Shown: in pieces, positions 6,017 to 57,400 of the stretch
Numbering within the stretch: position 1 is the first letter of the stretch
Layout of the letters: every line of letters starts with the position of its first letter
From: Candidatus Moraniibacteriota bacterium
GTDB lineage: Bacteria; Patescibacteriota; Minisyncoccia; Moranbacterales; UBA1568
NCBI GenBank assembly: GCA_903859375.1
Contig: CAIOMK010000059.1
Span: forward strand, 3,438 to 67,437
Length of the DNA: 64,000 nt
Reading direction: 5' to 3'
Notes under the pieces: generated by a model
What the model was told of the DNA's origin: nothing
Database searches by the model: none
The model's input: only the letters and a program-made list of their open reading frames with translations
Made by a program: the position numbers and the translations under genes

Positions 6017-6089
6017 CGGAGTGTGGTATAGTGGTATTACGCACGATTCGGGTTCGTGTAATCCGGGTTCGATTCCCGGCACTCCGACA
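6017..6089 (+). tRNA. tRNA-Pro, anticodon CGG
   Basis: Acceptor stem CGGAGTG/CACTCCG. Anticodon stem CACGA/TCGTG with loop UUCGGGU (anticodon CGG, G37). T-arm CCGGG-TTCGATT-CCCGG. Discriminator A, no encoded CCA. Confidence 0.8.
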
Positions 6090-6603: not shown

Positions 6604-6690
6604 GCCGAAGTGGCGAAATTGGTAGACGCACCAGGTTTAGGGCCTGGCAGGAGCAATCCTATGGGAGTTCGATTCTCCCCTTCGGCACCA
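6604..6690 (+). tRNA. tRNA-Leu, anticodon TAG, long variable arm, CCA encoded
   Basis: Acceptor GCCGAAG/CTTCGGC. Anticodon stem CCAGG/CCTGG with loop UUUAGGG. Long variable arm. T-arm GGAG-TTCGATT-CTCC. Terminal ACCA. Confidence 0.85.
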
Positions 6691-10292: not shown

Positions 10293-10784
10293 TTAGGTTC
10301 CTTTCATAGGTATTTTCACGATACGAAGCAGGAACATGGCGAGTGCCTCAAAGGGGATAACCTCACCGAGAAACGGTATTCCCTGAAACGCTCCGGCGAG
10401 AAACAATATCAATTCCCGCATCGCGATAACTTTGATCCGCGCTTTGATAGGCAGTTTCCGTGTCGATGGATCGTAATAGACGATAGCGGCCTGGATAGCC
10501 GTAAAGCAGAATGAGATAAGCCATGAAACTCCGGGGATCCACCCGAATATGAAGGCAAGTACCCATCCCAGAGCGCCGACCATAACGCCGAGCAACAGTG
10601 TCGTGGTCGACATTTTCCCGGCGCCTGCTCCGGCGCCGACCGGTACCGATGTGGGTGTCGCGTTCCTTTTCGGAGCGCTTTCACTCAGAACATCGTCATC
10701 GTTTGACTCATCGTCATCGACCGTGTCTTGGATATGTGTCGGCATAGGACGCTTATCGGTATCAGGATTCCCCTTGTTCCTCAT
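10293..10784 (-). CDS. Small membrane protein with an acidic N-terminus and 3 TM segments. Possibly starts at the internal Met MSTTTLL.
   Basis: ORF overlaps the VirB4 stop by 23 nt. Hydrophobic segments GVMVGALGWVLAFIF and LISFCFTAIQAAIVYY. Confidence 0.45.
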   Translation of the reverse strand: MRNKGNPDTDKRPMPTHIQDTVDDDESNDDDVLSESAPKRNATPTSVPVGAGAGAGKMSTTTLLLGVMVGALGWVLAFIFGWIPGVSWLISFCFTAIQAAIVYYDPSTRKLPIKARIKVIAMRELILFLAGAFQGIPFLGEVIPFEALAMFLLRIVKIPMKGT

Positions 10785-13140
10785 CGAACTCCTTCTTCGC
10801 TGCTTCGATCTCGATCATCTGACGGGGATCGGTAGTGATGATCTGGTCCTCACTGTAAGAGGCGATGACCTTGATGGCGACATGCTTGGTCCCGACGAAA
10901 AAGATCCCTTCACCGACGCTCGACTCAAGCAGGAGAAATTTCTCATGATCGGTCAGATAAAACGTTTCGGCGATAAGGTCGATTGACGATGGGGACTGCT
11001 TCAGGAGCAACTGTATGGACGAGTTCGTGATGATAGGCTTGCCGTATCGGGAAGAGAGGAAGTCACCGATGTCCTGTGTGATGGTCGTCAGTCCCGCATA
11101 GTATTTGCGACACCGTTTGGCGATTCCAAACATGAATGCGGCGGCATCCTCGTTCTGCATCATGATCCAAGCCTCATCGACAACGATCATCCGTTTCTTG
11201 GTCTCCGCGCGGATCTCGTTCCAGATGAATTGCAGGATGATGTACATCGCGACCGGCCGGAGTTCGTTCTCGAGATCGCGGATGTTGAAGATGACCATCT
11301 GCTTGTTCATCGAGATGTTGGTCTGATGATTAAGGAATCCTCCGAACACACCTTCGGTATATCGTTCAAGGCGCGCCGCAAGCGATTCCCCTCCTTCGAG
11401 ATTCCGGAGGACGGCATGCAGGTCGGACATCGTCGGGAACGACGATGCGTCGAGAGCGCGCAGGTCCGAGAGCTCTGTGATGTCCCTGATAGCATAGGTC
11501 TCACGGATCGAACGGTCGAGCACGGAATCCTCTTCCGGTGAAACCGCACCGAGCATAAGGTGTAGCAAGCCTATCAGGTTCGCGATATGGCTCCGGAACA
11601 CGCCCTCGTCATCGTCCGTCGTACCGATTTTCGGCAGATCGAACGGATTCAGGTGTGACTCGGACGAAAGAGAGATACCCAAGAACGACCCGCCGACAGT
11701 ATCACACAGATGTTGGTATTCGTTCTCCGGGTCGATGATGATCACAGACGTTCCGAACATCATTGCGCGCAACACCTCGAGCTTGATCGTATAGCTTTTT
11801 CCGGCACCGGACTTGGCAAAGACGACCATGTTCGCATTCTCCATCTTGAACCGGTCGAACAAGACGAGCGAATTATTGTGACGGTTGATGCCGTAGAGCA
11901 CGCCTTCATTCGACGACAGGTCAGATGAGACGAACGGGAACGTCGTCGAAAGCGGTGACGTATTGAGATTGTTTGCGATATCAAGCGTGTCCATGCCGAG
12001 CGGACGGGTCGAAATGAATCCCTGATCCATCCGAAGAATGGCCGGTTTAGAAAACACCATCTGTGCCTCAAGAATGGCCTCTATCCCCTGCGAGATATCC
12101 GAAAGAGTCTTCTCATCCTGAGCATAGACGGTTATATAGATTCCGAATCGGAAAAATTTCTCCGTCCCCTGCTGGAGACTGTCACGAAGTTCCTCGATAT
12201 TCTCGAGTGCGGATTCAAGGACGGGATCGCGTATTTTTCCGTCCTGGGACTCGATGGACATCTGCGACTGCACCTGTGTTGCGGACCGCCTCAGGTCCTT
12301 CATGATTTCCCGTGTGTCTATCGGATGTATGGAAAACGATATGTCCATCGGCGCATCCATGTTTATGATGGGCGAGAACCAGTTCGTTCCGAGATATTTC
12401 GGGTACGCGACGATAAACAATGTTTTTGCGAGCACATCACCCACTTGCATGGATGTAGGCGACAATCTGATCGCCGACGGCGCTATCAGGTCTCTCAATG
12501 TCGCCACGCCCTGGGAGTACAGGTCCCGGTTCGTCGCATCGGCGGTCTTCGCGGGATGTGGCAGACTTGGAAGTCCGAAGTGTCCAGACGACGCCTTGCG
12601 GGCTACGGGAGACACCTCCTTTGGAACGACGAATGCCGCGTTCGAAGCCGGCTTGATCGGCAAGACGGGATCTGTCAAAAGGGCATCTTGTTCAGGCCTC
12701 CACGCTGCTCGCGGTTGGGGAGCCGGCTCTACGGGAGCGACAGGCGCAGTTACTTGAGCCTCTGTATCGATTCCCCACGCCCCATAAACAGGAGCCTTAT
12801 TGACACTCCGCTCCGGAGCATGAAAAGGAAAGGGGGGGTTGCTCTCGACTGGGTGGACTTGTCCTTCACTACCTTGGTACATTCCTTCTTGCGGTACCTC
12901 CGGGAGGAAAAAAGGGTCGACCGGACGGGTCGGCTCGGAGTCACCGACAGTCGGAATATCAGAATACGGTGAAGTATCGGTTTGTGATTGGGACGGGAGT
13001 TGCGTTGACGGTTGGACAGACGGTGCGACCGGACTGCCGGAAGAATCCGCATTCATTCGTGATTGAGGCGTCAGTTTCCACGGATTGGATGAGGAGGTGA
13101 GATTCAGCCCGTCATCTTCGAAAACGATACTTTGTTTCAT
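10762..13140 (-). CDS. VirB4/TcpF/PrgJ-family type IV secretion ATPase with a ~230-aa Pro/Ser-rich disordered N-terminal extension
   Basis: Walker A FAKSGAGKSYT, IIIDPENEY (VirB4 D-P-E-x-E-Y), and Walker B MIVVDEAW. C-terminal TQ region. Confidence 0.8.
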   Translation of the reverse strand: MKQSIVFEDDGLNLTSSSNPWKLTPQSRMNADSSGSPVAPSVQPSTQLPSQSQTDTSPYSDIPTVGDSEPTRPVDPFFLPEVPQEGMYQGSEGQVHPVESNPPFPFHAPERSVNKAPVYGAWGIDTEAQVTAPVAPVEPAPQPRAAWRPEQDALLTDPVLPIKPASNAAFVVPKEVSPVARKASSGHFGLPSLPHPAKTADATNRDLYSQGVATLRDLIAPSAIRLSPTSMQVGDVLAKTLFIVAYPKYLGTNWFSPIINMDAPMDISFSIHPIDTREIMKDLRRSATQVQSQMSIESQDGKIRDPVLESALENIEELRDSLQQGTEKFFRFGIYITVYAQDEKTLSDISQGIEAILEAQMVFSKPAILRMDQGFISTRPLGMDTLDIANNLNTSPLSTTFPFVSSDLSSNEGVLYGINRHNNSLVLFDRFKMENANMVVFAKSGAGKSYTIKLEVLRAMMFGTSVIIIDPENEYQHLCDTVGGSFLGISLSSESHLNPFDLPKIGTTDDDEGVFRSHIANLIGLLHLMLGAVSPEEDSVLDRSIRETYAIRDITELSDLRALDASSFPTMSDLHAVLRNLEGGESLAARLERYTEGVFGGFLNHQTNISMNKQMVIFNIRDLENELRPVAMYIILQFIWNEIRAETKKRMIVVDEAWIMMQNEDAAAFMFGIAKRCRKYYAGLTTITQDIGDFLSSRYGKPIITNSSIQLLLKQSPSSIDLIAETFYLTDHEKFLLLESSVGEGIFFVGTKHVAIKVIASYSEDQIITTDPRQMIEIEAAKKEFDEEQGES

Positions 13141-21714: not shown

Positions 21715-21740
21715 AAAAACCCGACCGATATCGGGTTTTC
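21713..21740. terminator. Bidirectional terminator between the recombinase and convergent nrtR
   Basis: A7-CCCGA-ccgata-TCGGG-T4. Confidence 0.55.
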
Positions 21741-21759: not shown

Positions 21760-22449
21760 TTACAACACGTCGACCATTCTCGGCTTACGCTCGGTAAACG
21801 AGTAGAGGCGTGCCGGACGGCTCTGTCCGGATTTCCTGACCTTTCCTGATTCCTTTACCAGGCCGATGTCCTGTATTTTCTTGCGGAAATTCCGCTTGTC
21901 GAGCTCGTGTCCGAGGATGATTTCATAGGCCGTCTGCAGTTCGGTCAGGGTGAATTCCTTCGGCAACAGTCCGTATGCGATATTGGAATACCCGAGCTTG
22001 CTCCGGAGGCGCTCGATGCCGGCTGAGACGATCTTCGTATGATCGAATGCCGTCTTAGGAAGACGCGCCGTATCGTACCAGGCGATATCGGAATAGTATT
22101 CGATCGTTGCCGGCAGACATCGGTCGCTGTTCACAAGCGCGAAATACGCCACCGAAATGCTCCGCCCGCGGATGTCGCGATCAACCCCTCCGAACGTATA
22201 CAATTGTTCGAGATAGATATCGTCGACACCCGCTTTCTCGGACAGCACCCGTTCAGCCGCTTGGTCAAGCGACTCGTCCATACGGACCAGTCCGCCCGGA
22301 AGCGCCCATTTTCCATCATACGGACCGCTTCCGATACGAATCAAAAGCACCTTAAGAGTACCGCCGATTACCGAAAAAATAACCATATCGACCGCAAGAA
22401 GCGGCGATGCGTTCAAAGACGGTGCGATGGTCGTTTTCCGGTCGGACAT
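21760..22449 (-). CDS. nrtR: NrtR-type Nudix-related transcriptional regulator. The ORF-track start at 22713 is rejected; start at 22449.
   Basis: Nudix box GKWALPGGLVRMDESLDQAAERVLSEKAG plus C-terminal winged-helix region. The longer ORF would overlap nadR by 218 nt. Confidence 0.7.
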   Translation of the reverse strand: MSDRKTTIAPSLNASPLLAVDMVIFSVIGGTLKVLLIRIGSGPYDGKWALPGGLVRMDESLDQAAERVLSEKAGVDDIYLEQLYTFGGVDRDIRGRSISVAYFALVNSDRCLPATIEYYSDIAWYDTARLPKTAFDHTKIVSAGIERLRSKLGYSNIAYGLLPKEFTLTELQTAYEIILGHELDKRNFRKKIQDIGLVKESGKVRKSGQSRPARLYSFTERKPRMVDVL

Positions 22450-22495
22450 AAGATGAGTGTTACTTCTACAGCATACCCCGGCGGTCCGAACCGCG

Positions 22496-23506
22496 TCAAT
22501 CATATCTTCTCGTCCTGTCGGGAAACGATTCGAAGAATCCGGCGCCATTATCCGAAAGCAACTCCGAACATTCTTGAATCGCCATTTGCAACCGGACATC
22601 ATGATCGCCAGACAGGACAATGAACGGTTTTTGTTCCTTCTCAAGAACTTCACGGAATCGCGCGTGCATGGCATGCCGTATCGATTCCCCGTCACGGATT
22701 CCGTCTTGGACAAACGGGATATCCACGTCGGTCAGAAGATACAAATCGTCGCTCTTTCCTGCATTCCGCTTCGCGACGGAAACGGACCTGGCGCCGAGAT
22801 ACCGTTCATGCCAAAGATCCGTCGCCCACGAATCGGTATCGCAGAACATCAGCTTATCGGCATATCCTATCAGAGCGTCTTCCATCCGGTTCTGTTCATC
22901 GGCGATGAATTCGAATTCGCCCGTAGCCCACGGTGTTCCGGAAGAAATCTTCCCTTCGGTATAGGTCCGACCGAATTCCGGAACCCATGTCGTCTTGAAA
23001 TACTCCGCCAAAGCCTTCGACATGGTCGTGGTTCCCGTCGATTCCGCCCCGACCACAACGACGCGCCTGACGAAATATGAACGGACGATCGGATGCAGAT
23101 ATTCCCAGTTCGCATACAGGTCTCCACGTATCATCGTGGCTGAAACAGGAATATGTTCCCGCTTCAAGTCAACCAAGACGTGTTCGGCTCCGAGAAGGCG
23201 CGCATATGTCTCGCCGTATGTTTCGGAAGTGAACACCTTGTCCGGACGGTATCCGAGAAACTGCACCGTATACTTCGCCCATGCCGCGGAATCGTCATCT
23301 TGCATAATATCGGCGACGACCAACACGGTGACGGATGGATGAATCGCTTTGATCCACCGGGCTCGGGTCTCCCCCGAGATACCTTGATCGGAGCGCTCAC
23401 AGACCGCGACTGTCACCGCGTCGGACTGTCGCAGCGCCTCCTCAATAAGGAACGAGTGCCCCTTATGGAGCGGATAAAACTTTCCTACGACGAATCCCCG
23501 TGTCAT
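22496..23506 (-). CDS. nadR: NadR-like bifunctional NMN adenylyltransferase / ribosylnicotinamide kinase, with no HTH domain
   Basis: NMNAT motif GKFYPLHKGH and RNK P-loop VVGAESTGTTT. Start is at the internal Met (MTRGFVVGKF), in an ATGA overlap with pnuC. Confidence 0.8.
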   Translation of the reverse strand: MTRGFVVGKFYPLHKGHSFLIEEALRQSDAVTVAVCERSDQGISGETRARWIKAIHPSVTVLVVADIMQDDDSAAWAKYTVQFLGYRPDKVFTSETYGETYARLLGAEHVLVDLKREHIPVSATMIRGDLYANWEYLHPIVRSYFVRRVVVVGAESTGTTTMSKALAEYFKTTWVPEFGRTYTEGKISSGTPWATGEFEFIADEQNRMEDALIGYADKLMFCDTDSWATDLWHERYLGARSVSVAKRNAGKSDDLYLLTDVDIPFVQDGIRDGESIRHAMHARFREVLEKEQKPFIVLSGDHDVRLQMAIQECSELLSDNGAGFFESFPDRTRRYD

Positions 23507-24210
23507 ATGGAAGACATCTCCTTTCTTGTAGGAATGACCGGTTCGGACACCGGCGCCCCCTTCTTCCGCGTTTCCCGTTTCCACTCGACCAGCCCCAAAG
23601 TGGCGAGTACGAGGAAGACGAGATACAGCATGGACACAAATCGGACTTCCTTCGCCGCATAGAGCCATATCCCGATGACATCCACTACGATCCACAAGTA
23701 CCAGTTATCAACGATCCGGAAGATCATGAGCATCTGTGCCGCGAAACTCATCACGGTCGTCACTGCATCGAGATATGGGAACGATGCCGGCTCCTGGAAA
23801 ATTGATGGCCACCATTCGTTCACGTGACCCATGAACCATCCGAGAGCAAGCGTACCGACAACGATGAATACCGTGGTGAACACCCGTTCCTTCAGTGTAC
23901 CGAAGCGGACGAGCGCCTCGCTGGATGAGACATCGCCGCCCTTCTCCACCTTGGCCCAGACCCACCATCCATAGAAACCAGACAGGAGATAGTAGATCTG
24001 TTCCACGAAATCGGAGTACAGACGGATCTGGAAGAAAAGTGCGCCGTACAGTATGACTGCGACAATCCCGATCGGCCAGTTCAGGATATGCTTTCTCGCC
24101 ACCAGCCAGACCGCGGCGATATTGAGAACCGTCCCAAAAAATTCCAGATAGCTCATCGGATATCCGAGAACCGAGAAGAGCACGTTGTCGATGCTGAAGA
24201 ATGAAATCAT
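23503..24210 (-). CDS. pnuC: PnuC nicotinamide riboside transporter
   Basis: 7-8 TM protein with the PnuC-type Trp-rich motifs SGFYGWWVW and VDNWYLWIVVD. Confidence 0.8.
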   Translation of the reverse strand: MISFFSIDNVLFSVLGYPMSYLEFFGTVLNIAAVWLVARKHILNWPIGIVAVILYGALFFQIRLYSDFVEQIYYLLSGFYGWWVWAKVEKGGDVSSSEALVRFGTLKERVFTTVFIVVGTLALGWFMGHVNEWWPSIFQEPASFPYLDAVTTVMSFAAQMLMIFRIVDNWYLWIVVDVIGIWLYAAKEVRFVSMLYLVFLVLATLGLVEWKRETRKKGAPVSEPVIPTRKEMSSI

Positions 24211-24307
24211 ACGGGCGTTCGATTAGACTGATGAATACTGTTCGGAACGGACTCTTCACTCTGTGCATATGCCGACTCGACCCTCGGCATACTTCTCCGT
24301 CCCTTTG

Positions 24308-24328
24308 TTAGTGTATTATACACACTAA
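24308..24328. promoter_or_regulatory. Candidate NrtR operator 1 (perfect 7-N7-7 palindrome TTAGTGTATTATACACACTAA) overlapping the -10 of the minus-strand pnuC promoter (TTGACA 24342..24337, N16, TATAAT 24320..24315)
   Basis: Inverted repeat read directly from the sequence. Near-identical to site 2. Located between divergent NAD-salvage operons next to nrtR. Confidence 0.5.
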
Positions 24329-24539
24329 ATAATTCCTGTCAATGATCCGTCGGGAAAAAACGCGCCTGACGATAGTCTTTCCACGTAACGGCGACGAGTG
24401 ATCCCGCGAGCGGCTCCCGATCGGGACCAACGCGACAGCATGTCAAAAAACGGCCCACAGAGCGATATTTCCGCATGTACGGAATCGATACGCCTCCGTA
24501 CCGGTCACCGTAGCCAGACTTTTCTTGACAACGATTATA

Positions 24540-24558
24540 TAGTGTGTATAATACACTT
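24540..24558. promoter_or_regulatory. Candidate NrtR operator 2 (TAGTGTGTATAATACACTT) overlapping the -10 of the plus-strand nadM promoter (TTGACA 24525-24530, N15, TATAAT 24546-24551)
   Basis: Shares the 17-mer core AGTGTGTATAATACACT with operator 1 read on the opposite strand. Confidence 0.5.
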
Positions 24559-24766
24559 AGTAAGGACAGGAAAGGAATACGGAAAGACAGATCGGAAAAA
24601 CGGCTCACGACAACCGACGGGACCCATATCAGTTCCCGGCATCGCTGCCACAAGCCTCATCGAAGATCTTCCCCCGATGCCACAGGCATCGGCACTCCGT
24701 TCCCTACTTAGTGTACTTACTACAATATTAGTATCTTCACAACCGAAAAATCATAAGGAGAACAGC

Positions 24767-25678
24767 ATGGGACAGAAACGACTCGCCGTCATCATCGGCC
24801 GATTTCAGGTCGCAAGGCTGCATGGGGGACATCGCCACCTCATCGAAACGGCACGTGCGGAAGCCGACATGGTGCTCATCCTTCTCGGAAGCACCTCCGG
24901 ATTCCCATCGTCGCGCAATCCGCTTCCGTATCTCGTACGGAAAGCGATGATCGAAACGGAATTTCCGGACATCATCGTCGCAGAGCTTCCAGATCGCCAC
25001 ACAAACAGACTGTGGTCGGACAGTATCGATCATATCGTCACGACGACCTTTCCCGGATATGAGGCCCGCCTTTACGGGTCCCGGGACAGTTTTATCCCCT
25101 GTTATGACGGACTCCTGCCATGCGTCCTCATCCGGCCGGCGATAGCGCCGTCCGGGACGGAGCTCCGAGCGGGAATTTCCTCTTCGGACTACGGGAAAAG
25201 CGATTTCCGGGCAGGCATCATCCATGCACAGACCCTCCGTGAACCGATTTCCTATCAGGCAGTCGACATCGCGGTCATCCGGTACCCGGGAAACGAGGTC
25301 TTGCTCGGAAAAAAGAACTGCGACGGAGGAAAACTCCGCTTCATCGGAGGATTCACTGATCCTTCGGATGCATCACTCGAGACGGCCGCCCTCCGGGAAT
25401 TGAACGAGGAGGCTGGTTGCATCGATTGCCATGCGGTCGATTACCTCGGTTCGTTCCGTGTACCGGATCATCGGTATCTCGGAGCGGAAGACCAGGTCAT
25501 GACGGCATTCTTCGCCGCTTATCACCTCTCCGGGCTTCCGAAAGCCGGCGACGACATCGACGAGGTCGCCTGGATCCTGATCGGGGACATCTCATCGTGC
25601 ATCGTGCAGAATCATCTGCCTCTCGCAAAGAGACTCATCACCTTCATCAACGAAACAAAAACAGGAGTCCCCGCATGA
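24767..25678 (+). CDS. nadM: NadM-like NMN adenylyltransferase fused to a Nudix (ADP-ribose pyrophosphatase) domain. Start at ATG 24767 after AAGGAG; the ORF-track start at 24398 is rejected.
   Basis: GRFQVARLHGGH nucleotidyltransferase motif and Nudix box GGFTDPSDASLETAALRELNEEAG. Confidence 0.7.
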   Translation: MGQKRLAVIIGRFQVARLHGGHRHLIETARAEADMVLILLGSTSGFPSSRNPLPYLVRKAMIETEFPDIIVAELPDRHTNRLWSDSIDHIVTTTFPGYEARLYGSRDSFIPCYDGLLPCVLIRPAIAPSGTELRAGISSSDYGKSDFRAGIIHAQTLREPISYQAVDIAVIRYPGNEVLLGKKNCDGGKLRFIGGFTDPSDASLETAALRELNEEAGCIDCHAVDYLGSFRVPDHRYLGAEDQVMTAFFAAYHLSGLPKAGDDIDEVAWILIGDISSCIVQNHLPLAKRLITFINETKTGVPA

Positions 25679-27063
25679 ACACCGACGAAAACATCATCCT
25701 CCTGACCGACAGCTACAAACCGTCACATTGGAGACAATACCCCGACAAGACGACCGGTATCTACGGTTTTCTCGAAAGCCGTGGCGGAGTTTTTCCGGAA
25801 ATACTGTTCTTCGGTCTCCAGTATTTCCTCAAGAAATATCTCTCCGGCTCGGTCGTCAGCAAGGAGAATATCATCGAGGCGCGCGAGCTCCTCGGTGAGC
25901 ATTTCGGAAACAGCTCGATTTTCAACGAAGCGGGCTGGACCAGGATCCTCGAACATCACGGCGGCCGTCTGCCTGTTCGGATCAAGGCGGTACCCGAAGG
26001 GACCGTCGTGCCGAACTCGAACGTCCTTCTGACTATGGAGAGCACCGATCCCGGACTGGCATGGCTCCCGAACTACCTTGATCCGCTCCTGACAGAGCTC
26101 TGGTACCCCTGTACTGCGGCGACCCAAAGCCGTGCGATGAAAGATATCATCCTCGAATACCTCGAGGAAACCGGAGATACTGGACTGATTGATTTCAAAC
26201 TGCACGACTTCGGATTCCGCGGATCGACCAGTCCCGAATCAGCCGGCATCGGAGGAGCCGCACACCTGGTGAACTTCAAGGGAAGCGACAACCTCACCGC
26301 GATCCGAATGCTCCGCCGGCTCTATTCCGAACCGATGGCGGGATTTTCCATCCCGGCGGCGGAACACAGCACGATAACGTCTTGGGGAAAGCAACACGAG
26401 GTGGACGCGTTTCGCAACATGCTCGAGCAATTCCCCGAAGGTCTGGCCGCTGTCGTTTCCGACAGCTACGACATATTCCATGCCTGTCGGACACTTTGGG
26501 GCAAGGAACTCAGGGAAAAAGTCCTCGGCAGGAACGGCACGCTCGTCGTCCGTCCGGACAGCGGCGACCCTGCTACGGTCGTCGTCGAAGTATTGAACAT
26601 CCTCGGTGAGGCCTTCGGTACGGAAATGAACGCGAAAGGTTACAAGGTGCTCGACCCGCATGTCCGAGTCATCCAAGGAGACGGCATCGACCTCCACTCG
26701 CTTCCACTAATCTTGTCTCATATGAAGAGACACGGGTGGTCGGCTGACAACGTCGCCTTCGGTTCCGGAGGCGGACTGCTCCAGAAAATGAACCGCGACA
26801 CGAACCGTTTCGCATTCAAATGCTCGGCAGCCGAAATCGACGGGGCTTGGAAAGATGACATCATGAAAGACCCGGTCACCGACCCCGGCAAACGTTCCAA
26901 AGCCGGCAGGATGAAACTCATCCAAGAAAACGGCACACTCCGGACGGTATGCGAAAGCGCACCCGGAGAAGACCGACTCGTAACGGTATTCGAGAACGGC
27001 CGGTTACTCCAAGACTGGTCGCTCGCGGAAATACGCGATCGGGCAAACGACAAGAACGAATAA
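25675..27063 (+). CDS. nadV: Nicotinamide phosphoribosyltransferase (NAMPT/NadV). Start in ATGA overlap with nadM; the ORF-track start at 25417 is rejected.
   Basis: [24 protein letters not shown]-terminus and full-length NAPRTase-family similarity (GTSPESAG, DSYD). Confidence 0.85.
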   Translation: MNTDENIILLTDSYKPSHWRQYPDKTTGIYGFLESRGGVFPEILFFGLQYFLKKYLSGSVVSKENIIEARELLGEHFGNSSIFNEAGWTRILEHHGGRLPVRIKAVPEGTVVPNSNVLLTMESTDPGLAWLPNYLDPLLTELWYPCTAATQSRAMKDIILEYLEETGDTGLIDFKLHDFGFRGSTSPESAGIGGAAHLVNFKGSDNLTAIRMLRRLYSEPMAGFSIPAAEHSTITSWGKQHEVDAFRNMLEQFPEGLAAVVSDSYDIFHACRTLWGKELREKVLGRNGTLVVRPDSGDPATVVVEVLNILGEAFGTEMNAKGYKVLDPHVRVIQGDGIDLHSLPLILSHMKRHGWSADNVAFGSGGGLLQKMNRDTNRFAFKCSAAEIDGAWKDDIMKDPVTDPGKRSKAGRMKLIQENGTLRTVCESAPGEDRLVTVFENGRLLQDWSLAEIRDRANDKNE

Positions 27064-27065
27064 AA

Positions 27066-27100
27066 AAAGCGTTCCGAAAACCATCGGAGCGCTTTTTCTT
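27066..27100. terminator. Bidirectional terminator between nadV and convergent uvrD
   Basis: Imperfect hairpin GCGTTCCGA/TCGGAGCGC with T-run, flanked by an A-run. Confidence 0.5.
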
Positions 27101-47299: not shown

Positions 47300-48808
47300 T
47301 CAGGACTCCGGTTTTATAAGGTTTCTCGATACCCGATCGAAGTGGAACCGGAAAATCCAGTGTTCCACGACCGCGGAGAACGCCGCGGGATTTCTCCTCG
47401 CCGTTTCGATAAAGCTTCTCCAATACCATGAACGCGCCTGGGAAAGTATGCCGATCCGTACGACGGAAAACACAAATGCCCGCATGCTTCCCCACGAGAA
47501 ATGATGTCTCAAAAGCGGATTCGGTCGATACTCGTCAAGAAAGGTGAGGAGTCTCCCATAATACATCTCCGGGGAATAGATCGTCGAAACGACATTTCTG
47601 TAACCGACAGCCAACTCTTCTCTGGTCATTCCCTTCGGCGTGAAGTTGACGGTCCCGTCGGTATTGTCACCGGTCGAGTTTCCGAGAAGTCTCCCTTCCG
47701 CAGACAACCGGTGATACAACCTCGTGCCTGGCAACGCCTGTAGAGGCCCGACCATCGCCGTCAGCACTCCGGTAGTCTGGATAAGATCGATCATTTTTCG
47801 CGGTGTCTCCACGGTATCCTGATCGAATCCGAGCACATACCCTCCTTGTACCTGTATCCCTCTTTGGAACAGGTGTTTCACCGACGCAGGCATATCGACC
47901 CCCGCATTCAGGTGTTTATTGGCACCTTTCAGACTCTCGATTTCCGGTGTCTCGATACCGATGAAGACGCGGAAGAATCCTGCCCGTGCCATCATCGAGA
48001 TAAGTTCATCGTCATCAGCCAGACTGATATCGACCTGGGTATAGAACTGAAAAGGATACCCGTACGTCTGTTGGAAAACGGCTATTTCCGAGAGTACGCC
48101 CTTCGCCTTTTTTTTGTGTCCGATGAAATTGTCATCCGCGAAGAAGACCGACCCACGCCAACCGGCATAATACATGACGGATAATTCCTCGATGACCCGC
48201 GTGGCCGTTTTCAACCGCATGATACGCCCGTTCAATCCCGTCACGTTGCAGAATTCGCAATCATGAGGACAGCCTTTGCCGAACTGCAGGGACACTGATG
48301 AATAGCTTCGCATCGTCCCCTGCAGGAGATCCCAGCGGGGAATCGGGCTTATCATGATATCGCAATACACCTTCGCTTCCGACGCATACACCGGTTTCGC
48401 ATGACCCTGTTTCAGATCCTCCAAAAAATATGGGAGTGACCGCTCGGCTTCCCCGAGGACAAGATGATCGACCAACCCGGAAAATCGATCCGGGTCCGAC
48501 GTAAACATCGCTCCGCCAGCTACCGTATCCCTTCGAAAGAGCCGGCATCGGGCAAGCATCTCAACCGTCGCCTTGCTTTGCGCAAGCATCGCGCTTATGA
48601 ATACCAGGTCGGCCCAAAGGATATCCTCGTCCGAAATCTCACCGATATTCTCATCCAGCAACCGCAGAGTCCACTCTTTCGGGAGCATGGCGGCGATAGT
48701 CAACAGTCCGAGTGGCGGAAAAGCCGCTTTCTTTCCAGTGAATGCAAGCGCGTGCCTAAAGCTCCAGAACGTGTCCGGGTATTTCGGGTATACCAATAAT
48801 ACCTTCAT
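47300..48808 (-). CDS. B12-binding-domain radical SAM protein (class B rSAM)
   Basis: N-terminal B12-binding fold MKVLLVYPKYPDTFWSF... and radical SAM cluster CPHDCEFCNV. Confidence 0.85.
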   Translation of the reverse strand: MKVLLVYPKYPDTFWSFRHALAFTGKKAAFPPLGLLTIAAMLPKEWTLRLLDENIGEISDEDILWADLVFISAMLAQSKATVEMLARCRLFRRDTVAGGAMFTSDPDRFSGLVDHLVLGEAERSLPYFLEDLKQGHAKPVYASEAKVYCDIMISPIPRWDLLQGTMRSYSSVSLQFGKGCPHDCEFCNVTGLNGRIMRLKTATRVIEELSVMYYAGWRGSVFFADDNFIGHKKKAKGVLSEIAVFQQTYGYPFQFYTQVDISLADDDELISMMARAGFFRVFIGIETPEIESLKGANKHLNAGVDMPASVKHLFQRGIQVQGGYVLGFDQDTVETPRKMIDLIQTTGVLTAMVGPLQALPGTRLYHRLSAEGRLLGNSTGDNTDGTVNFTPKGMTREELAVGYRNVVSTIYSPEMYYGRLLTFLDEYRPNPLLRHHFSWGSMRAFVFSVVRIGILSQARSWYWRSFIETARRNPAAFSAVVEHWIFRFHFDRVSRNLIKPES

Positions 48809-54448: not shown

Positions 54449-57400
54449 TTGTATCCTCCAAAAAAATCTTTTCCTAAACAGAATCCTATGGTTCAGGTCG
54501 TTTCAAAATCGTCGCAGGACTGGAGAGACGTAAAAACGAAAAAAGCGGCGACCGTTCTTCACGCACTCGAAGGCGCGTCCAAAGAGCAGGAGGCCGCCCA
54601 GAAAGCCGCGTTGCTCGGTGTTCCGTATCTTGACCTCAATATCTTTCCAGCAAACCCGATCGATGTGACTATTATTCCGAAGGAAGACGCGACAAGGCTC
54701 CATATAGCCATATTCGACAAGACAAAAGGCGTCGTCCGGGTAGCGTTCGACGATCCGACAGATTCCGAGGCCACTCAGTTTATCGAAAAACTGGCCAAAG
54801 AAAACGATTGGGTAGTCGAACCGTACGTCGTCTCGATGCAGTCACTTGAGAAGGTCTGGACGATCTATGACACCGCCCCGTTTCTACAGAGTCTCGATCT
54901 GTTCCGCGTTTCCCTCTCCGGAGAAGACCTGCGCCGGTTCGAAGAAAATTTCAGTGAACTTCTCAAACTGAAAAGCTCGTCTTCCATTTCCATTTCCCAA
55001 ACCATCGAAATCATTCTTGCCGGAGCGAACAAACTCCGGGCAAGCGACATCCATATCGAGCCGGAAACCGGTTCCGTGCGTCTCCGTTATCGTATAGACG
55101 GCGTCTTGCAGGATATAGGAGAACTCTCGAAGGACATCTATCGGTTGACGCTTTCGCGGGTGAAAATGCTTGCCGGCATGAAGATAAACATCCGGGACCG
55201 GTCTCAGGACGGCCATTTCGGCATCGAGCTCGACGGAAAAAAAGTCGACCTCCGAGTGAACATCATACCAGGCAGTCACGGTGAAAGCATCAACCTTCGC
55301 ATACTCAACGCCGAAAGTATCCTCTTGGATCTGAAAACGATTGGGCTGGACGGTGAAACCTTGGAAAAGGTTCTCCGCGCCATAGGAAAACCACATGGGA
55401 TGATCCTGAACACCGGGCCGACCGGTTCCGGCAAAACGACGACCCTCTATAGTCTTCTTCACACGCTCAACAAGCCAGAAATCAAGATCATCACTATCGA
55501 GGATCCGGTCGAATATCAGCTCCAGGGTGTTGTTCAGACCGAAGTATCCAAAAATCAGACATATACGTTCGCAGCCGCACTTCGGGCCATCGTCCGGCAA
55601 GATCCGGATGTGATTCTCGTCGGCGAAATCCGAGACGACGAGACCGCAGATATCTCAGTGAATGCCGCGCTCACCGGACACCTCCTCCTCTCGACGATTC
55701 ATGCGAACAGCGCGCCGGGTGCCGTAGGACGACTCATCGAGCTCGGAGTGAAGCCGTCACTCATAGCCTCCGCAACGGATATCATCATCGGACAAAGACT
55801 GGTTCGGATCCTCTGCCCGGATTGCAAGGAATCGTATGAGCCGGCGAAAGAAACCATCAGCTCCATAGAGCGCATCCTTTCAGTCATTTCTCCGAAGGCC
55901 CATATCGAGGTGCCTCACAACGTGAAGGAGCTCTGGAAGCCGGTCGGTTGCGTCAAATGCAATCTTACGGGCTATCATGGCCGAATCGGTATTTTCGAGG
56001 CATTCACGATCACGCCTCCGATAGAGGAGCTCATCGTGAACATGGGCACAGAAAGAGAGATCATGAGAGCCGCCATCGAAGACGGCATGGTGACCATGTT
56101 GCAAGACGGCATGATCAAGGCGCTCCGTGGCACGACGACACTCGAGGAGATATGGCGTGCGACCGGACAAAAGGAGAGCATGCAGGAACTCTACGAGGAG
56201 CTCATGCCGAGTCTTCTTTCGCGGGCATCGGACATCCCCGCCTCAGCATTCATATCGGCGCGGGAGAATATCTCGTCTTTCGAAATATTCGCAAAATACA
56301 CGGCGACACTCAATGATCATGACCTGATTCGCGTAATCTTTGCCGCCGCACTCTTTCTTCGGGCTGGTGATGTCCACTTCGAACCGACAGATGAATCCAT
56401 TCTCGTCCGATTCCGTATCGACGGCATCCTTCAGACCATCCTGTCTTTCCCAAAGAACATCTATCCGTCGATTCTCGGTGAGATCAAGCTTTGGAGCGGC
56501 CTGAAGACCGGGCAACGTTCCGGCGTAACGGATGGCCGGTTCACACTCTCCGTCGAAGAACCGTTCGAGCAGGTAAAGCCGGGGAAAATAGATGTCCGTC
56601 TTTCGATAATCCTGGGCGGATTCGGGGAAACGGCCGTCATGAGAATTTTAGGCGGTTCATCAATCACGTTGTCACTCGACGCGCTCGAGTTTCGAAAAGA
56701 GAATTTGTCCCGCATCGATGCTGCGCTCCGGAAGCCGAACGGGATGATCGTGAACGTCGGTCCGACCGGTTCCGGTAAGACGACAACACTCTATAGCATG
56801 CTTTCCAAACTCAATACCCCCGAAGTGAAGATCATCACAGTCGAGGACCCGATCGAATACCAGCTTCCGGGAGTATTGCAGACACAGGTGAACGAAGCGG
56901 AAGGGTATTCTTTCGCCGAAGCGCTCCGAGCACTTCTCCGTCAGAACCCGGATATCCTTATGCTCGGAGAAATCCGCGACGAGGAGACGGCCCGCATAGC
57001 CGTCCAGGCAGCCGTCACAGGACACCTCGTCCTCTCGACGGTTCACGCGAACAGCGCTGCCGGAGCTGTATCCCGTATTATCGGCATGGGCGTTCCGACC
57101 GACGACCTCGCGAATGCGATAAACTGTTTCATTTCCCAACGTCTCGTCCGAAGACTCTGTCCGAATTGTCGCAAGGAAGAACAGCCCACCCAGGAAGAAA
57201 CAACCCTGATCGAACGCATCCTTGGAAAAGTCGACAACGCGCTCCTCACGGAAGTTCCCCCGACAGACAAGGTATTCCGCACGGTCGGATGTCCGAAATG
57301 TAACGGAGTCGGTTATTCCGGACAGATCGTCTTATCGGAGGTCTTATTGAAAGATCCTGATATCGAAGGACTTATCGCGGGGAACGCACTTTCGTCAGAA

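What the first reader, a model, noticed from the sequence alone, without database searches (positions are those of the whole stretch)
21760..27063. Complete NrtR-controlled NAD salvage module with paired palindromic operators
This is a divergent pair of operons. On the minus strand: pnuC-nadR(NMNAT+RNK)-nrtR. On the plus strand: nadM/Nudix-nampt.

The 530-bp shared control region contains two copies of a near-perfect palindrome with core AGTGTGTATAATACACT. Each overlaps the -10 hexamer of a TTGACA/TATAAT promoter, one on each strand. That is the expected geometry for repression by the Nudix-related regulator NrtR encoded in the module.

A third half-site, TTAGTGTA, lies at about 24.71 kb.

The genes encode nicotinamide riboside uptake plus nicotinamide phosphoribosylation, with no de novo NAD genes in the window. 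This points to obligate vitamin scavenging.
Basis: partly seen in the sequence, partly recalled or inferred. Interest (0 to 1): 0.55.

Follow-up and report, generated by a model that had tools for sequence, protein, structure and literature searches.

The report
NrtR-repressed NAD salvage operon pair
Two back-to-back operons for scavenging vitamin B3 forms into NAD, in an uncultured Moranbacteria (CPR) genome, are most likely switched off by their own NrtR repressor through three palindromic DNA boxes; this is a real and tidy example of a well-known circuit, seen in a little-studied lineage.

Summary
The 17-mer AGTGTGTATAATACACT occurs twice in 64 kb, in inverted orientation. Each copy sits inside one of the window's only two perfect TTGACA-16-TATAAT promoters.

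Each copy is the core of a 21-bp box, WTAGTGT-N7-ACACTAW. That is the published NrtR box type (21-bp palindrome, GT-N7-AC core), and the -10 hexamer fills the 7-bp centre.

The reported "third half-site" is a full third box at 24708-24728, 38 nt upstream of the nadM start.

All five genes are as claimed: pnuC-nadR-nrtR leftward and nadM/Nudix-nadV rightward.
- The regulator has a degenerate Nudix box and an NrtR-type winged helix.
- Its model superposes on the Shewanella NrtR-DNA complex.

The same box lies next to nrtR in 43 of 80 loci from many phyla: 71 sites against about 1.7 expected.

The source is a Candidatus Moranbacteria (CPR) metagenome contig.

What is not shown:
- repression itself;
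- the effector (ADP-ribose is inferred);
- "obligate scavenging", which a 64-kb window cannot establish.

A clade-specific extra is a set of conserved leader hairpins, each followed by a pyrimidine tract and a second box. Their role is unknown.

Verdict: a new member of a known kind, of modest interest.

The parts
21760..22449 (-). nrtR: Nudix-related transcriptional regulator, 229 aa, last gene of the leftward operon
   Evidence: - Pfam NUDIX plus NrtR_WHD, E 1.6e-25.
- NCBIfam NF050029, 'ADPR responsive transcriptional repressor', E 1e-53 but below the equivalog cut-off.
- Full-length sequence matches to BtAraR 5BS6 (E 8e-47) and SoNrtR 3GZ5 (E 1.5e-36).
- Model pLDDT 89, TM 0.79-0.84 to 3GZ6 and 5BS6.
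- The Nudix box reads R67-V-L-S-E-K72 instead of REUxEE (read from the sequence).
22496..23506 (-). nadR: NMN adenylyltransferase plus ribosylnicotinamide kinase, 336 aa, without the enterobacterial N-terminal HTH
   Evidence: - CTP_transf_like at residues 6-74 and AAA_28 at 148-304.
- TIGR01526 nadR_NMN_Atrans, E 8e-60, below its cut-off.
- HKGH and GAESTGTT motifs are visible in the translation.
- The start codon overlaps the pnuC stop (ATGA).
23503..24210 (-). pnuC: nicotinamide riboside transporter, 235 aa
   Evidence: PF04973, E 1e-51. TIGR01528, 103.8 bits against a cut-off of 42.
24267..24292 (-). hairpin in the pnuC 5' leader with a GGUCG-containing loop
   Evidence: - Predicted 9-bp stem.
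- A hairpin with different stems and the same GGTCG loop is present in the pnuC leaders of L002, L090, L008 and L010.
- Function unknown.
24308..24328 (.). NrtR box 1, TTAGTGTATTATACACACTAA; its 7-bp centre holds the -10 of the pnuC promoter
   Evidence: 0 mismatches to TAGTGT-N7-ACACTA. Best matrix score in the window, 28.7.
24315..24342 (-). pnuC-nadR-nrtR promoter: TTGACA (24342-24337), 16-nt spacer, TATAAT (24320-24315). Inferred transcription start near 24308.
   Evidence: 12/12 consensus match.
24525..24552 (+). nadM-nadV promoter: TTGACA (24525-24530), 16-nt spacer, TATAAT (24547-24552). Inferred transcription start near 24559.
   Evidence: 12/12 consensus match. The promoter is conserved in L003, L005, L007, L083, L084, L086 and L090.
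24539..24559 (.). NrtR box 2, ATAGTGTGTATAATACACTTA, centred on the -10 of the nadM promoter
   Evidence: 1 mismatch. Matrix score 24.4. Part of a 59-nt, 75% inverted repeat with the box 1 module.
24609..24649 (+). leader hairpin P1, a three-part stem of 13 pairs in the nadM 5' UTR
   Evidence: RNAalifold consensus on 6 relatives, with one compensatory pair. L090, L091 and L007 keep a hairpin there with different stem sequences.
24674..24692 (+). leader hairpin P2, CCGATGCC-ACA-GGCATCGG, followed by a 15-nt pyrimidine tract and then box 3
   Evidence: - Predicted in all 9 leaders.
- UA to CG compensatory change in 3 sequences, and one G-U.
- Followed by a U-run in L007 and L090.
24708..24728 (.). 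NrtR box 3 (proximal), TTAGTGTACTTACTACAATAT, 38 nt upstream of the nadM ATG and about 150 nt downstream of the inferred transcription start
   Evidence: - 1 mismatch. Matrix score 23.8.
- A proximal box at the same place, 161-182 bp from the distal box, occurs in 8 related loci.
24767..25678 (+). nadM/Nudix: bifunctional NMN adenylyltransferase / ADP-ribose pyrophosphatase-like protein, 303 aa. It is a divergent Patescibacteria form. AAGGAG lies 6 nt before the ATG.
   Evidence: - Sequence matches to curated NadM models are weak: 43 bits against a cut-off of 397, and PDB 2QJT at E 3e-7.
- H19-G-G-H22, S-G-T-x-x-R134 and R210-E-x-x-E-E215 are invariant or nearly so in 51 homologues.
- Model pLDDT 94.6. 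The top fold hits are 2QJT, 2QJO and 2R5W over the full length, E 1e-17 to 1e-18.
25675..27063 (+). nadV: nicotinamide phosphoribosyltransferase (NAMPT), 462 aa. The start codon overlaps the nadM stop.
   Evidence: NAMPT_N, E 5e-37, and NAPRTase, E 1e-58. NF006629, 606 bits against a cut-off of 405.
27064..27097 (+). terminator-like hairpin ending the nadM-nadV operon
   Evidence: 14-pair stem followed by a T-run.
21715..21740 (-). terminator-like hairpin ending the pnuC-nadR-nrtR operon
   Evidence: 11-pair stem followed by a T-run.
22454..22474 (.). possible degenerate fourth box, with the GT-N7-AC core kept, just upstream of the nrtR ATG
   Evidence: Fourth-best matrix score in 64 kb: 8.9, with the next at 5.1. 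It overlaps a 9/12 promoter-like site. The evidence is weak and it could be chance.

Best explanation
This is an NrtR regulon of the classical kind. The NrtR dimer encoded at the end of the leftward operon binds three 21-bp boxes (WTAGTGT-N7-ACACTAW) in the 556-bp divergent control region.

Boxes 1 and 2 each enclose the -10 hexamer of a consensus promoter. A bound repressor would therefore exclude RNA polymerase from both promoters at once:
- pnuC-nadR-nrtR: nicotinamide riboside uptake, phosphorylation and adenylylation, plus autoregulation of the repressor.
- nadM/Nudix-nadV: nicotinamide to NMN to NAD.

Box 3 lies about 150 nt into the nadM leader, just before the ribosome-binding site. 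It most likely adds a second hold on that operon, by roadblock or by cooperative binding.

NrtR's Nudix-like domain is catalytically dead. When an NAD breakdown product binds it, the repressor leaves the DNA and salvage is induced. By analogy with characterised NrtRs, that product is most probably ADP-ribose. The Nudix half of NadM could then remove ADP-ribose and reset the switch.

Shown here by computation: the boxes, their position relative to the promoters, the identity and fold of the proteins, and the association of this box with nrtR across phyla. Inferred: binding, repression, the effector, and the role of box 3.
For: Boxes and promoters:
- Exact duplicated 17-mer, 0.01 expected by chance.
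- The three boxes score 24-29 against 8.9 for the next best site.
- The window's only two 12/12 promoters have the -10 in the box centre.
- The box matches the published NrtR definition, a 21-bp palindrome with a GT-N7-AC core (PMC2330246).

Association with nrtR and NAD genes:
- TAGTGT-N7-ACACTA at up to 1 mismatch occurs 71 times in 43 of 80 nrtR loci from many phyla. Shuffles give about 1.65. Of these sites, 36 lie within 200 nt upstream of nrtR.
- The exact 18-mer was scanned in metagenomes. Wherever a -35 is also present, NAD genes follow: a nicotinamidase-family (isochorismatase domain) gene, NAD kinase, nadM-nadV or nrtR.

The regulator:
- NrtR_WHD E 1.6e-25. Model TM 0.79-0.84 to the SoNrtR-DNA complex and to BtAraR.
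- Degenerate Nudix signature (read from the sequence).
- The equivalents of the SoNrtR ADP-ribose contacts Lys76 and Arg98 are K72 and R94 here. Both are at least 90% conserved in the clade, whereas BtAraR has Leu and Gly at those positions.

Context:
- Published regulons have the same content: Synechocystis nadM-nadV, Streptococcus nadR-pnuC-nrtR, Hahella nrtR<>pnuC-nadR-nadM-pncB.
- The distal-plus-proximal box layout is conserved in 8 related Moranbacteria loci.
Against: - No experiment of any kind supports binding or repression.
- The promoters are called from the E. coli sigma-70 consensus in a CPR organism whose promoters are uncharacterised.
- NrtR scores below NCBI's equivalog cut-off (182 against 400 bits). 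Its best solved relative is the arabinose-sensing AraR, not an ADP-ribose sensor.
- Only 2 of the 6 SoNrtR ADP-ribose contact residues named in PMC4666351 are conserved. One characterised family member, C. glutamicum NdnR, responds to NAD instead.
- Spacing between the distal and proximal boxes varies from 161 to 182 bp without helical phasing. DNA looping is therefore not supported, and the role of box 3 stays open.
Confidence: 0.85

Rival explanations
1. Same repressor and same boxes, but a different signal. The Nudix-like pocket would sense NAD, NMN, a phospho-ADP-ribose or another metabolite rather than ADP-ribose.
For: - Only the Lys76 and Arg98 equivalents of the SoNrtR ADP-ribose contacts are kept. 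The Arg41, Asn43, Phe15 and Tyr10 equivalents are not.
- The closest solved relative is BtAraR, whose pocket binds arabinose.
- NdnR of C. glutamicum responds to NAD (cited in PMC4666351).
Against: - The two retained residues contact the phosphate and ribose of ADP-ribose, and they are exactly the ones AraR has lost.
- ADP-ribose is the effector in both NrtRs tested biochemically, including the Synechocystis one that controls nadM-nadV.
- There are no sugar genes nearby.
Confidence: 0.2
2. A second, post-initiation checkpoint. The conserved leader hairpin, pyrimidine tract and proximal box would form an attenuation device, that is, a weak terminator or a protein- or ligand-binding RNA. Read-through would depend on NrtR occupancy of box 3 or on another factor, acting on top of promoter occlusion.
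For: - Hairpins P1 and P2 are conserved with compensatory changes.
- P2 is followed by a U-run in L007 and L090.
- The hairpin-to-box distance is constant at 14-16 nt in the 9 nadM and nicotinamidase-like leaders (read). By eye it is 13-14 nt in two pnuC leaders, L090 and L010.
- The pnuC-leader hairpins share a GGUCG loop.
Against: - The whole-leader fold is no better than shuffled sequence, z = -1.2.
- There are no conserved unpaired nucleotides such as a ligand pocket would need.
- No Rfam family matches.
- The covariance model finds the element only in this narrow clade.
- The window's own P2 lacks a U-run.
- The same hairpin-tract-box unit sits next to box 1 in an orientation where it cannot act on pnuC transcription. 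That points to module duplication rather than selection for a mechanism.
- Few independent lineages are available.
Confidence: 0.15
3. The palindrome is a generic promoter element or a chance repeat, and the Nudix protein is simply an enzyme (an ADP-ribose pyrophosphatase), as public annotation says.
For: - Public records name the homologues 'NUDIX hydrolase' or '8-oxo-dGTP diphosphatase'.
- The centre of the box is the -10 hexamer.
Against: - None of the other 15 promoter-like sites in the window has the arms.
- 0.01 copies are expected by chance.
- There is a 43-fold excess of boxes at nrtR loci across phyla.
- Box 3 has the arms but no good -10.
- Two of the three catalytic glutamates of the Nudix box are replaced, and a winged helix is present.
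Confidence: 0.02

Closest known systems
Synechocystis sp. PCC 6803 NrtR (Slr1690) controlling nadM-nadV, nadA and nadE (Rodionov et al. 2008, PMC2330246)
   Same: - A Nudix-wHTH repressor with a perturbed Nudix signature.
- A 21-bp GT-N7-AC box upstream of a nadM(Nudix)-nadV operon.
- ADP-ribose releases the protein from DNA in vitro.
   Different: - Here nrtR is co-transcribed with pnuC-nadR and sits divergent to nadM-nadV.
- No de novo or nadE targets are visible in the window.
- The NadM protein is a divergent Patescibacteria form.
- Nothing here has been tested experimentally.
Shewanella oneidensis NrtR (SO1979) on the prs-nadV operator; structures 3GZ5, 3GZ6 and 3GZ8
   Same: - Fold: TM about 0.8 and 38% identity.
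- Binds a palindrome as a dimer.
- The operon carries two boxes, and both are functional in EMSA.
- The ADP-ribose contacts Lys76 and Arg98 are conserved here.
   Different: - The target operon is different (prs-nadV).
- Four other ADP-ribose contact residues are not conserved here.
- The Shewanella boxes are in tandem, whereas here they are about 170 bp apart with a structured leader between them.
[quoted passage not shown]
   Same: nrtR is linked to and predicted to control pnuC-nadR (salvage pathway III). Hahella also combines pnuC, nadR and nadM.
   Different: - Gene order and orientation differ.
- The Streptococcus box is one of the most divergent (ATA-N-TTTA-N3-TAAAA-N2-ATA, per PMC6800001). 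Here the box is the common GT-N7-AC type.
Bacteroides thetaiotaomicron AraR (BT0354), an NrtR-family arabinose repressor; structures 5BS6, 5DD4 and 5DEQ
   Same: It is the best sequence and fold match among solved structures, with the same two-domain dimeric architecture.
   Different: - AraR senses L-arabinose and controls ara genes.
- It has Leu67 and Gly89 where this protein, like SoNrtR, has Lys and Arg.
- The genomic context here is purely NAD-related.
Other NAD regulators: enterobacterial NadR (HTH-NMNAT-RNK), NiaR and NadQ
   Same: They control NAD salvage or synthesis genes, including pnuC. NadQ also has a Nudix-like domain and a related C-terminal domain (7Q91, E 4e-19 over residues 135-220).
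   Different: - The NadR here lacks the HTH domain and so is an enzyme only.
- No NiaR is present.
- NadQ is longer (336 aa) and matches only the C-terminal part.

Membership tests
NrtR family of Nudix-related transcriptional regulators | N-terminal Nudix-fold domain | tested here: met
   PF00293, E 1.3e-11, residues 23-134. The model aligns with the Nudix domains of 3GZ8 and 5BS6.
NrtR family of Nudix-related transcriptional regulators | C-terminal NrtR-type winged helix-turn-helix DNA-binding domain | tested here: met
   PF21906 NrtR_WHD, E 1.6e-25, residues 160-218. The model shows helix-helix-helix-strand-strand at 168-218 with pLDDT above 90. Full-length TM 0.79-0.82 to the SoNrtR-DNA complex 3GZ6.
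NrtR family of Nudix-related transcriptional regulators | Perturbed Nudix signature, so a sensor rather than an enzyme. This is typical of the family but not universal. | tested here: met
   G53-x5-E59-x7-R67-V-L-S-E71-K72-A-G-V. The canonical REUxEE has lost two of its three glutamates (translation, numbering).
NrtR family of Nudix-related transcriptional regulators | Cognate operator: a 21-bp palindrome with a GT-N7-AC core upstream of NAD genes | tested here: met
   Three boxes at 24308-24328, 24539-24559 and 24708-24728. Definition from PMC2330246. The same box lies next to nrtR in 43 of 80 loci.
NrtR family of Nudix-related transcriptional regulators | Chromosomal linkage to NAD metabolism genes | tested here: met
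   In an operon with pnuC-nadR and divergent to nadM-nadV.
NrtR family of Nudix-related transcriptional regulators | Sequence-specific DNA binding that is relieved by ADP-ribose | not testable with these tools
   Indirect only. The Lys76 and Arg98 equivalents are conserved, while the Arg41, Asn43, Phe15 and Tyr10 equivalents are not.
NrtR family of Nudix-related transcriptional regulators | Scores above NCBIfam's equivalog model NF050029 | tested here: not met
   182 bits against a cut-off of 400. That model is narrow. The protein is a family member by Pfam but not an equivalog of the model's seed group.
Bifunctional NadM-Nudix (NMN adenylyltransferase / ADP-ribose pyrophosphatase) | N-terminal nucleotidyltransferase domain with HxGH and SxTxxR motifs | tested here: met
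   H19-G-G-H22, with a 2-residue insertion before it relative to Francisella NadM. S-G-T-E-L-R134. These residues are invariant or nearly invariant in 51 homologues. Rossmann-like beta-alpha pattern in the model.
Bifunctional NadM-Nudix (NMN adenylyltransferase / ADP-ribose pyrophosphatase) | C-terminal Nudix domain with an intact catalytic box | tested here: met
   R210-E-L-N-E-E215-A-G, invariant in the family. PF00293, E 8.5e-14. There is one extra residue between the upstream Gly and Asp and the Arg (read from the sequence).
Bifunctional NadM-Nudix (NMN adenylyltransferase / ADP-ribose pyrophosphatase) | Passes the curated family models | tested here: not met
   The best NCBIfam score is 43 bits against a cut-off of 397. 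Pfam misses the N-terminal domain. Fold search nevertheless ranks 2QJT, 2QJO and 2R5W first over the full length, at E 1e-17 to 1e-18 but whole-chain TM about 0.4 because the domain orientation differs. It works like NadM and is a divergent lineage of it.
NadR (non-regulatory form), PnuC and NadV/NAMPT | Diagnostic domains present | tested here: met
   - NadR: CTP_transf_like plus AAA_28; TIGR01526 E 8e-60, below its cut-off of 341 bits.
- PnuC: TIGR01528 above its cut-off.
- NadV: NF006629 at 606 bits against 405, and NAMPT_N.
Known NAD riboswitches and other Rfam families, for the leaders | Match to a covariance model | tested here: not met
   No hit at gathering threshold in the window. Only chance-level hits with E 0.3 or higher in 24150-24850.

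The most novel reading that the evidence does not exclude
In this Moranbacteria clade, NrtR control may be two-tiered. The first tier is a box that occludes a consensus promoter. The second would be a conserved unit in the leader: a hairpin, a 13-16-nt pyrimidine tract and a second box. This unit is seen in nadM, nicotinamidase-like and pnuC leaders.

That unit could be a previously undescribed attenuator in which repressor occupancy, or an RNA-binding factor or ligand recognising the GGUCG-loop hairpin, decides whether polymerase reaches the gene. It would be a composite protein/RNA checkpoint on cofactor salvage in ultra-small symbiotic bacteria.
Probability: 0.12. Interest if true: 0.55.

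Novelty: new member of a known kind. Interest (0 to 1): 0.3.

Why it matters
The circuit type has been known since 2008, so the finding changes nothing in principle. Its value is local.

- **A readable regulon in CPR bacteria.** It gives a clean transcriptional regulon in Candidatus Moranbacteria, a lineage where almost no regulation has been described. A full-text search that combined NrtR with four names for this bacterial group listed ten papers, none of which mentions NrtR.
- **Promoter signals.** These organisms appear to use E. coli-like -35 and -10 signals.
- **Annotation.** Homologues of the regulator are labelled NUDIX hydrolase or 8-oxo-dGTP diphosphatase in public records and could be renamed.
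- **Physiology.** NAD supply from nicotinamide and nicotinamide riboside looks like a regulated, presumably host-dependent function. That could guide cultivation media.

The conserved leader hairpins are the only element that might hold something new.

Tried and rejected
- **Riboswitch in the long leaders.** Rfam at gathering threshold on the whole window, and at E up to 10 on 24150-24850, found nothing relevant. The whole-leader fold is not better than shuffles, with z = -1.2 and -0.8.
- **Antiterminator pairing.** I considered pairing between the upstream GGCATCG and the 5' arm of P2. I rejected it because relatives change the P2 arm without changing the upstream copy (read).
- **Wider distribution of the leader element.** A covariance model of P1+P2, searched over 935 kb of loci, found only the training clade. 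L090 and L091 scored 27 bits and L007 scored 15 bits.
- **DNA looping between the distal and proximal boxes.** Spacings of 161-182 bp show no helical phasing.
- **Box 3 as a second promoter.** The right half resembles a -10 in some loci (TACAAT here), but no acceptable -35 exists on either strand. On the minus strand, TTGTGA-17-TAAGTA looks like a decayed copy of the pnuC promoter module.
- **N-terminal extensions.** The 412-aa NadM and 262-aa NrtR of the public gene calls are rejected. The NadM extension spans the promoter and boxes, has no family hit, and homologues start at the AAGGAG-preceded ATG.
- **Supplementary site tables of the 2008 paper.** These are not held in the library. The comparison with known boxes therefore rests on the published consensus and on my own scan of nrtR loci from the same phyla.
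- **Metagenome scan for the exact 18-mer.** It gave 47 stretches. By my rough estimate, roughly 30 chance hits are expected for a collection of about a terabase, so only hits that also have a -35 were interpreted.
- **RNAalifold on MAFFT alignments of the pnuC-leader hairpins.** The result was uninformative because the arms were misaligned.

Full report
**1. The observation**

The region 21760-27063 holds five genes in two divergent operons.

Leftward operon:
- pnuC, 23503-24210.
- nadR, 22496-23506. Its start overlaps the pnuC stop.
- nrtR, 21760-22449.
- A terminator-like hairpin follows at 21740-21715.

Rightward operon:
- nadM/Nudix, 24767-25678.
- nadV, 25675-27063. Its start overlaps the nadM stop.
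- A terminator-like hairpin follows at 27064-27097.

The 17-mer AGTGTGTATAATACACT occurs exactly twice in the 64 kb, at 24310-24326 on the minus strand and 24541-24557 on the plus strand. There are no further matches at up to three mismatches, and 0.01 matches are expected by chance.

Each copy lies in a 12/12 match to TTGACA-16-TATAAT. A scan of the whole window shows these are the only two 12/12 sites. None of the other 15 sites scoring 10/12 or better has the AGTGT...ACACT arms. The two promoter-operator modules are inverted copies of each other over 59 nt at 75% identity.

**2. What the palindrome is**

Read as 21-mers, the sites are:
- Box 1: TTAGTGTATTATACACACTAA, 24308-24328.
- Box 2: ATAGTGTGTATAATACACTTA, 24539-24559.

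That is WTAGTGT-N7-ACACTAW, with the -10 hexamer filling the non-symmetric centre. Rodionov et al. 2008 define most NrtR operators as 21-bp palindromes with a conserved GT-N7-AC core (PMC2330246), and these sites fit that definition.

Searching TAGTGT-N7-ACACTA in the window gives three sites with at most one mismatch, and all three lie in this intergenic region. It is a whole box.

I built a position matrix from boxes in other loci. It scores the three sites 28.7, 24.4 and 23.8. The next best site in the window scores 8.9, and the one after that 5.1.

**3. Is the box tied to NrtR?**

I fetched 80 genomic loci that encode relatives of the regulator. They come from Patescibacteria, Planctomycetota, Chloroflexota, Myxococcota, cyanobacterial relatives and some archaea.
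- The box at up to one mismatch occurs 71 times, in 43 of the 80 loci. Shuffled sequence gives a mean of 1.65.
- 36 of the sites lie within 200 nt upstream of the nrtR start.

A scan of public metagenome contigs for the exact 18-mer TAGTGTGTATAATACACT gave 47 stretches. An 18-mer should hit roughly 30 times by chance in a collection of that size (my rough estimate), so I interpreted only hits that also have a -35. Those hits precede:
- nrtR;
- nadM-nadV;
- the nicotinamidase-like gene described in section 6;
- an isochorismatase/nicotinamidase-family gene (PF00857, E 3e-28);
- an NAD kinase.

The palindrome is therefore not a generic promoter element. It is the common NrtR box.

**4. The proteins**

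*NrtR (229 aa)*
- It has a Nudix domain and the NrtR winged-helix domain PF21906, E 1.6e-25.
- It matches B. thetaiotaomicron AraR (E 8e-47) and S. oneidensis NrtR (E 1.5e-36) over its full length.
- An AlphaFold model from 54 homologues (pLDDT 89) superposes on both, including the SoNrtR-DNA complex 3GZ6, with TM 0.79-0.84.
- Its Nudix box reads R-V-L-S-E-K instead of R-E-U-x-E-E, so it should be catalytically inactive, like the characterised regulators.
- Six SoNrtR residues that contact ADP-ribose are listed in PMC4666351. Lys76 and Arg98 are kept here as K72 and R94, and both are at least 90% conserved in the clade. AraR has Leu and Gly at those positions. The other four are not kept.
- ADP-ribose is therefore the most likely signal, but this is inferred.

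*NadR*
- It has the NMNAT and kinase domains and lacks the enterobacterial HTH, so it is an enzyme only.

*PnuC and NadV*
- Both are unambiguous.

*NadM/Nudix*
- This is the least standard of the five. Curated models barely see it: 43 bits against a cut-off of 397, and Pfam misses the N-terminal domain.
- About 2400 homologues exist, mostly in Patescibacteria.
- In 51 of them, HxGH (here HGGH), SGTxxR and REUxEE are invariant or nearly so.
- The model (pLDDT 94.6) has the Francisella and Synechocystis NadM-Nudix enzymes as its top full-length matches, at E about 1e-17 to 1e-18.

Together the five genes convert nicotinamide riboside and nicotinamide to NAD through NMN. NadD and NadE are not needed.

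**5. Source and context**

The window is part of a 70.9-kb metagenome contig, ENA ERZ27313579 k141_28958. The nearest genomes are Candidatus Moranbacteria / Moraniibacteriota MAGs, with 67-86% NrtR identity.

The other window genes are typical of such genomes. They include IF-2, the CCA-adding enzyme, PcrA, Pol I, RuvABC, a Mur ligase, FemAB, a LysM-CHAP hydrolase, a XerC-like recombinase, type IV secretion and pilus ATPases, and many ORFs without family hits.

No other NAD gene was found among ORFs of 140 aa or more. A 64-kb window cannot show obligate scavenging, however. One relative, L088, has nadE upstream of nrtR and a cytidylyltransferase-like gene (possibly nadD) downstream of it.

**6. 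Comparative anatomy in relatives**

The side of nrtR that carries the XerC-like and LysM-CHAP genes is syntenic. The other side varies:
- pnuC-nadR-nrtR alone: L002, L082, L008, L010.
- nadV-nadM divergent from nrtR: L003, L083.
- A 271-275-aa nicotinamidase-like gene divergent from nrtR: L005, L007, L084, L086. It matches PDB 1ILW at E 4e-5.
- The same layout as the window: L090 and L091, at 72% NrtR identity.

In every nadM or nicotinamidase-like leader of this subclade, two boxes are present.
- The distal box sits over a strong promoter.
- The proximal box sits about 40 nt before the start codon in most of them.
- The two are 161-182 bp apart.

Two hairpins lie between the boxes.
- P1 is at window 24609-24649 and P2 at 24674-24692.
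- RNAalifold recovers both on the six closest sequences. There is one compensatory pair in each and one G-U in the sense orientation.
- P2 is recovered on all nine sequences.
- L090, L091 and L007 keep hairpins at the same places with different stem sequences.
- P2 is followed by a pyrimidine tract of 14-16 nt, which is a U-run in L007 and L090, and then by the proximal box.

pnuC leaders show the same logic.
- In L090, L008 and L010, box 1 in the promoter is followed by a hairpin with a conserved GGUCG loop, a pyrimidine tract and a second box 64-68 bp away.
- In the window, the hairpin is kept at 24267-24292, but the second box has decayed.

A covariance model of P1+P2 finds nothing outside this clade, and Rfam has no match. 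I regard this as a real, clade-specific structured leader of unknown role.

**7. Mechanism**

*Best supported (confidence 0.85).* NrtR binds boxes 1 and 2 and excludes RNA polymerase from both consensus promoters. This also autoregulates nrtR, the last gene of the leftward operon.

Box 3, well downstream of the inferred transcription start near 24559, gives a second hold on nadM-nadV. A bound effector, probably ADP-ribose, releases the repressor. The Nudix half of the induced NadM may then consume ADP-ribose and close the loop.

| Status | Elements |
|---|---|
| Shown by computation | Boxes, geometry, protein identities and folds, box-to-nrtR association |
| Inferred | Binding, repression, effector, role of box 3 |

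*Rivals.*
- A different effector (0.2).
- An added attenuation or roadblock tier that uses the hairpin-tract-box unit (0.15). This is weakened by the lack of a U-run in the window and by a paralogous unit beside box 1 in a non-functional orientation.
- A generic element or a mere enzyme (0.02).

**8. Comparison and novelty**

The closest described systems are:
- Synechocystis NrtR on nadM-nadV;
- Shewanella NrtR on prs-nadV, which has two boxes and a solved DNA complex;
- the Streptococcus nadR-pnuC-nrtR and Hahella nrtR<>pnuC-nadR-nadM-pncB loci.

All defining features of the NrtR family that can be tested by computation are met. The biochemical one cannot be tested here. The narrow NCBIfam equivalog model is not reached (182 against 400 bits).

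A full-text search combining NrtR with four names for this group (Patescibacteria, Candidate Phyla Radiation, Saccharibacteria, Moranbacteria) returned 724 papers holding at least two of the terms. None of the ten listed mentions NrtR. Public records label these proteins as Nudix hydrolases.

This is a new member of a known kind. I score interest at 0.3. The only possibly new element is the leader architecture.

Noticed in passing
window 24560-24707 (hairpins at 24609-24649 and 24674-24692); also L003, L005, L007, L083, L084, L086, L090, L091: The roughly 150-nt stretch between the distal and proximal NrtR boxes carries two conserved hairpins with compensatory changes. The second is followed by a 14-16-nt pyrimidine tract (a U-run in L007 and L090) and then the proximal box. 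There is no Rfam match, and a covariance model finds it only in this clade.
   Followed up: partly
window 24267-24292 (- strand RNA); L002, L090, L008 and L010 pnuC leaders: pnuC leaders share a hairpin whose stems differ but whose loop keeps GGUCG. In L090, L008 and L010 it is followed by a pyrimidine tract and a second NrtR box 64-68 bp from the first. In the window that second box (about 24233-24253) has decayed.
   Followed up: partly
window 22454-22474: The fourth-best match to the NrtR box matrix in the whole 64 kb (8.9 bits, GT-N7-AC core kept) lies 5 nt upstream of the nrtR start codon and overlaps a weak promoter-like site (TTGACG-18-TATGCT). It may be an internal autoregulated promoter, or it may be chance.
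   Followed up: partly
L005 4820-5866, L007 949-1776, L084 2788-3603, L086 954-1781, L083 372-1187: Relatives place a 271-275-aa protein under the same two-box leader. It is only faintly similar to nicotinamidases and isochorismatases (IDPQNDF motif; PDB 1ILW E 4e-5; Pfam below threshold). In several of these loci a 241-263-aa protein without family hits follows, and in L084 a PP2C-like gene as well. It is absent from the window. It is probably a divergent PncA-like member of the Moranbacteria NrtR regulon.
   Followed up: partly
window 24440-24766 and 22450-22548; record ena:ERZ27313579:k141_28958: The public gene calls over-extend two starts, giving NadM as 412 aa (running through the promoter and all leader elements) and NrtR as 262 aa. 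Homologues of NrtR are annotated as 'NUDIX hydrolase' or '8-oxo-dGTP diphosphatase'.
   Followed up: yes
L091 653-2038, compared with L090: In an otherwise near-identical locus, a 461-aa ORF without Pfam hits is inserted in the divergent control region between nadM and pnuC. It is possibly a mobile element. The central spacer of the control region is not conserved between the window and L090.
   Followed up: no
L088 1-5549: In a relative with 72% NrtR identity, nrtR sits among a glutamine-dependent NAD synthetase (nadE), a SLOG-family protein and a cytidylyltransferase-like gene (possibly nadD). No box at up to 2 mismatches was found there. At least some Moranbacteria therefore have the NaMN-to-NAD branch.
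   Followed up: no
L093 94-716; L127 6047-6982: The exact 18-mer box inside a -35/-10 promoter also precedes an isochorismatase/nicotinamidase-family gene and an NAD kinase gene on unrelated metagenome contigs. This extends the range of genes behind this promoter-embedded box.
   Followed up: partly
window 54449-57514; 58156-58764; 47300-48808; 10762-13140; 6017-6087 and 6604-6687: Other window features:
- a 1021-aa protein with two type II/IV secretion ATPase (T2SSE) modules;
- a SET-domain protein;
- a B12-binding radical SAM protein with DUF4070;
- a TraG/VirD4-like P-loop protein next to several large ORFs without family hits;
- two tRNA genes.
   Followed up: no
window 24414-24425: A perfect 12-bp palindrome, TCCCGATCGGGA, lies in the middle of the control region between the two promoters. 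It is not conserved in L090.
   Followed up: no
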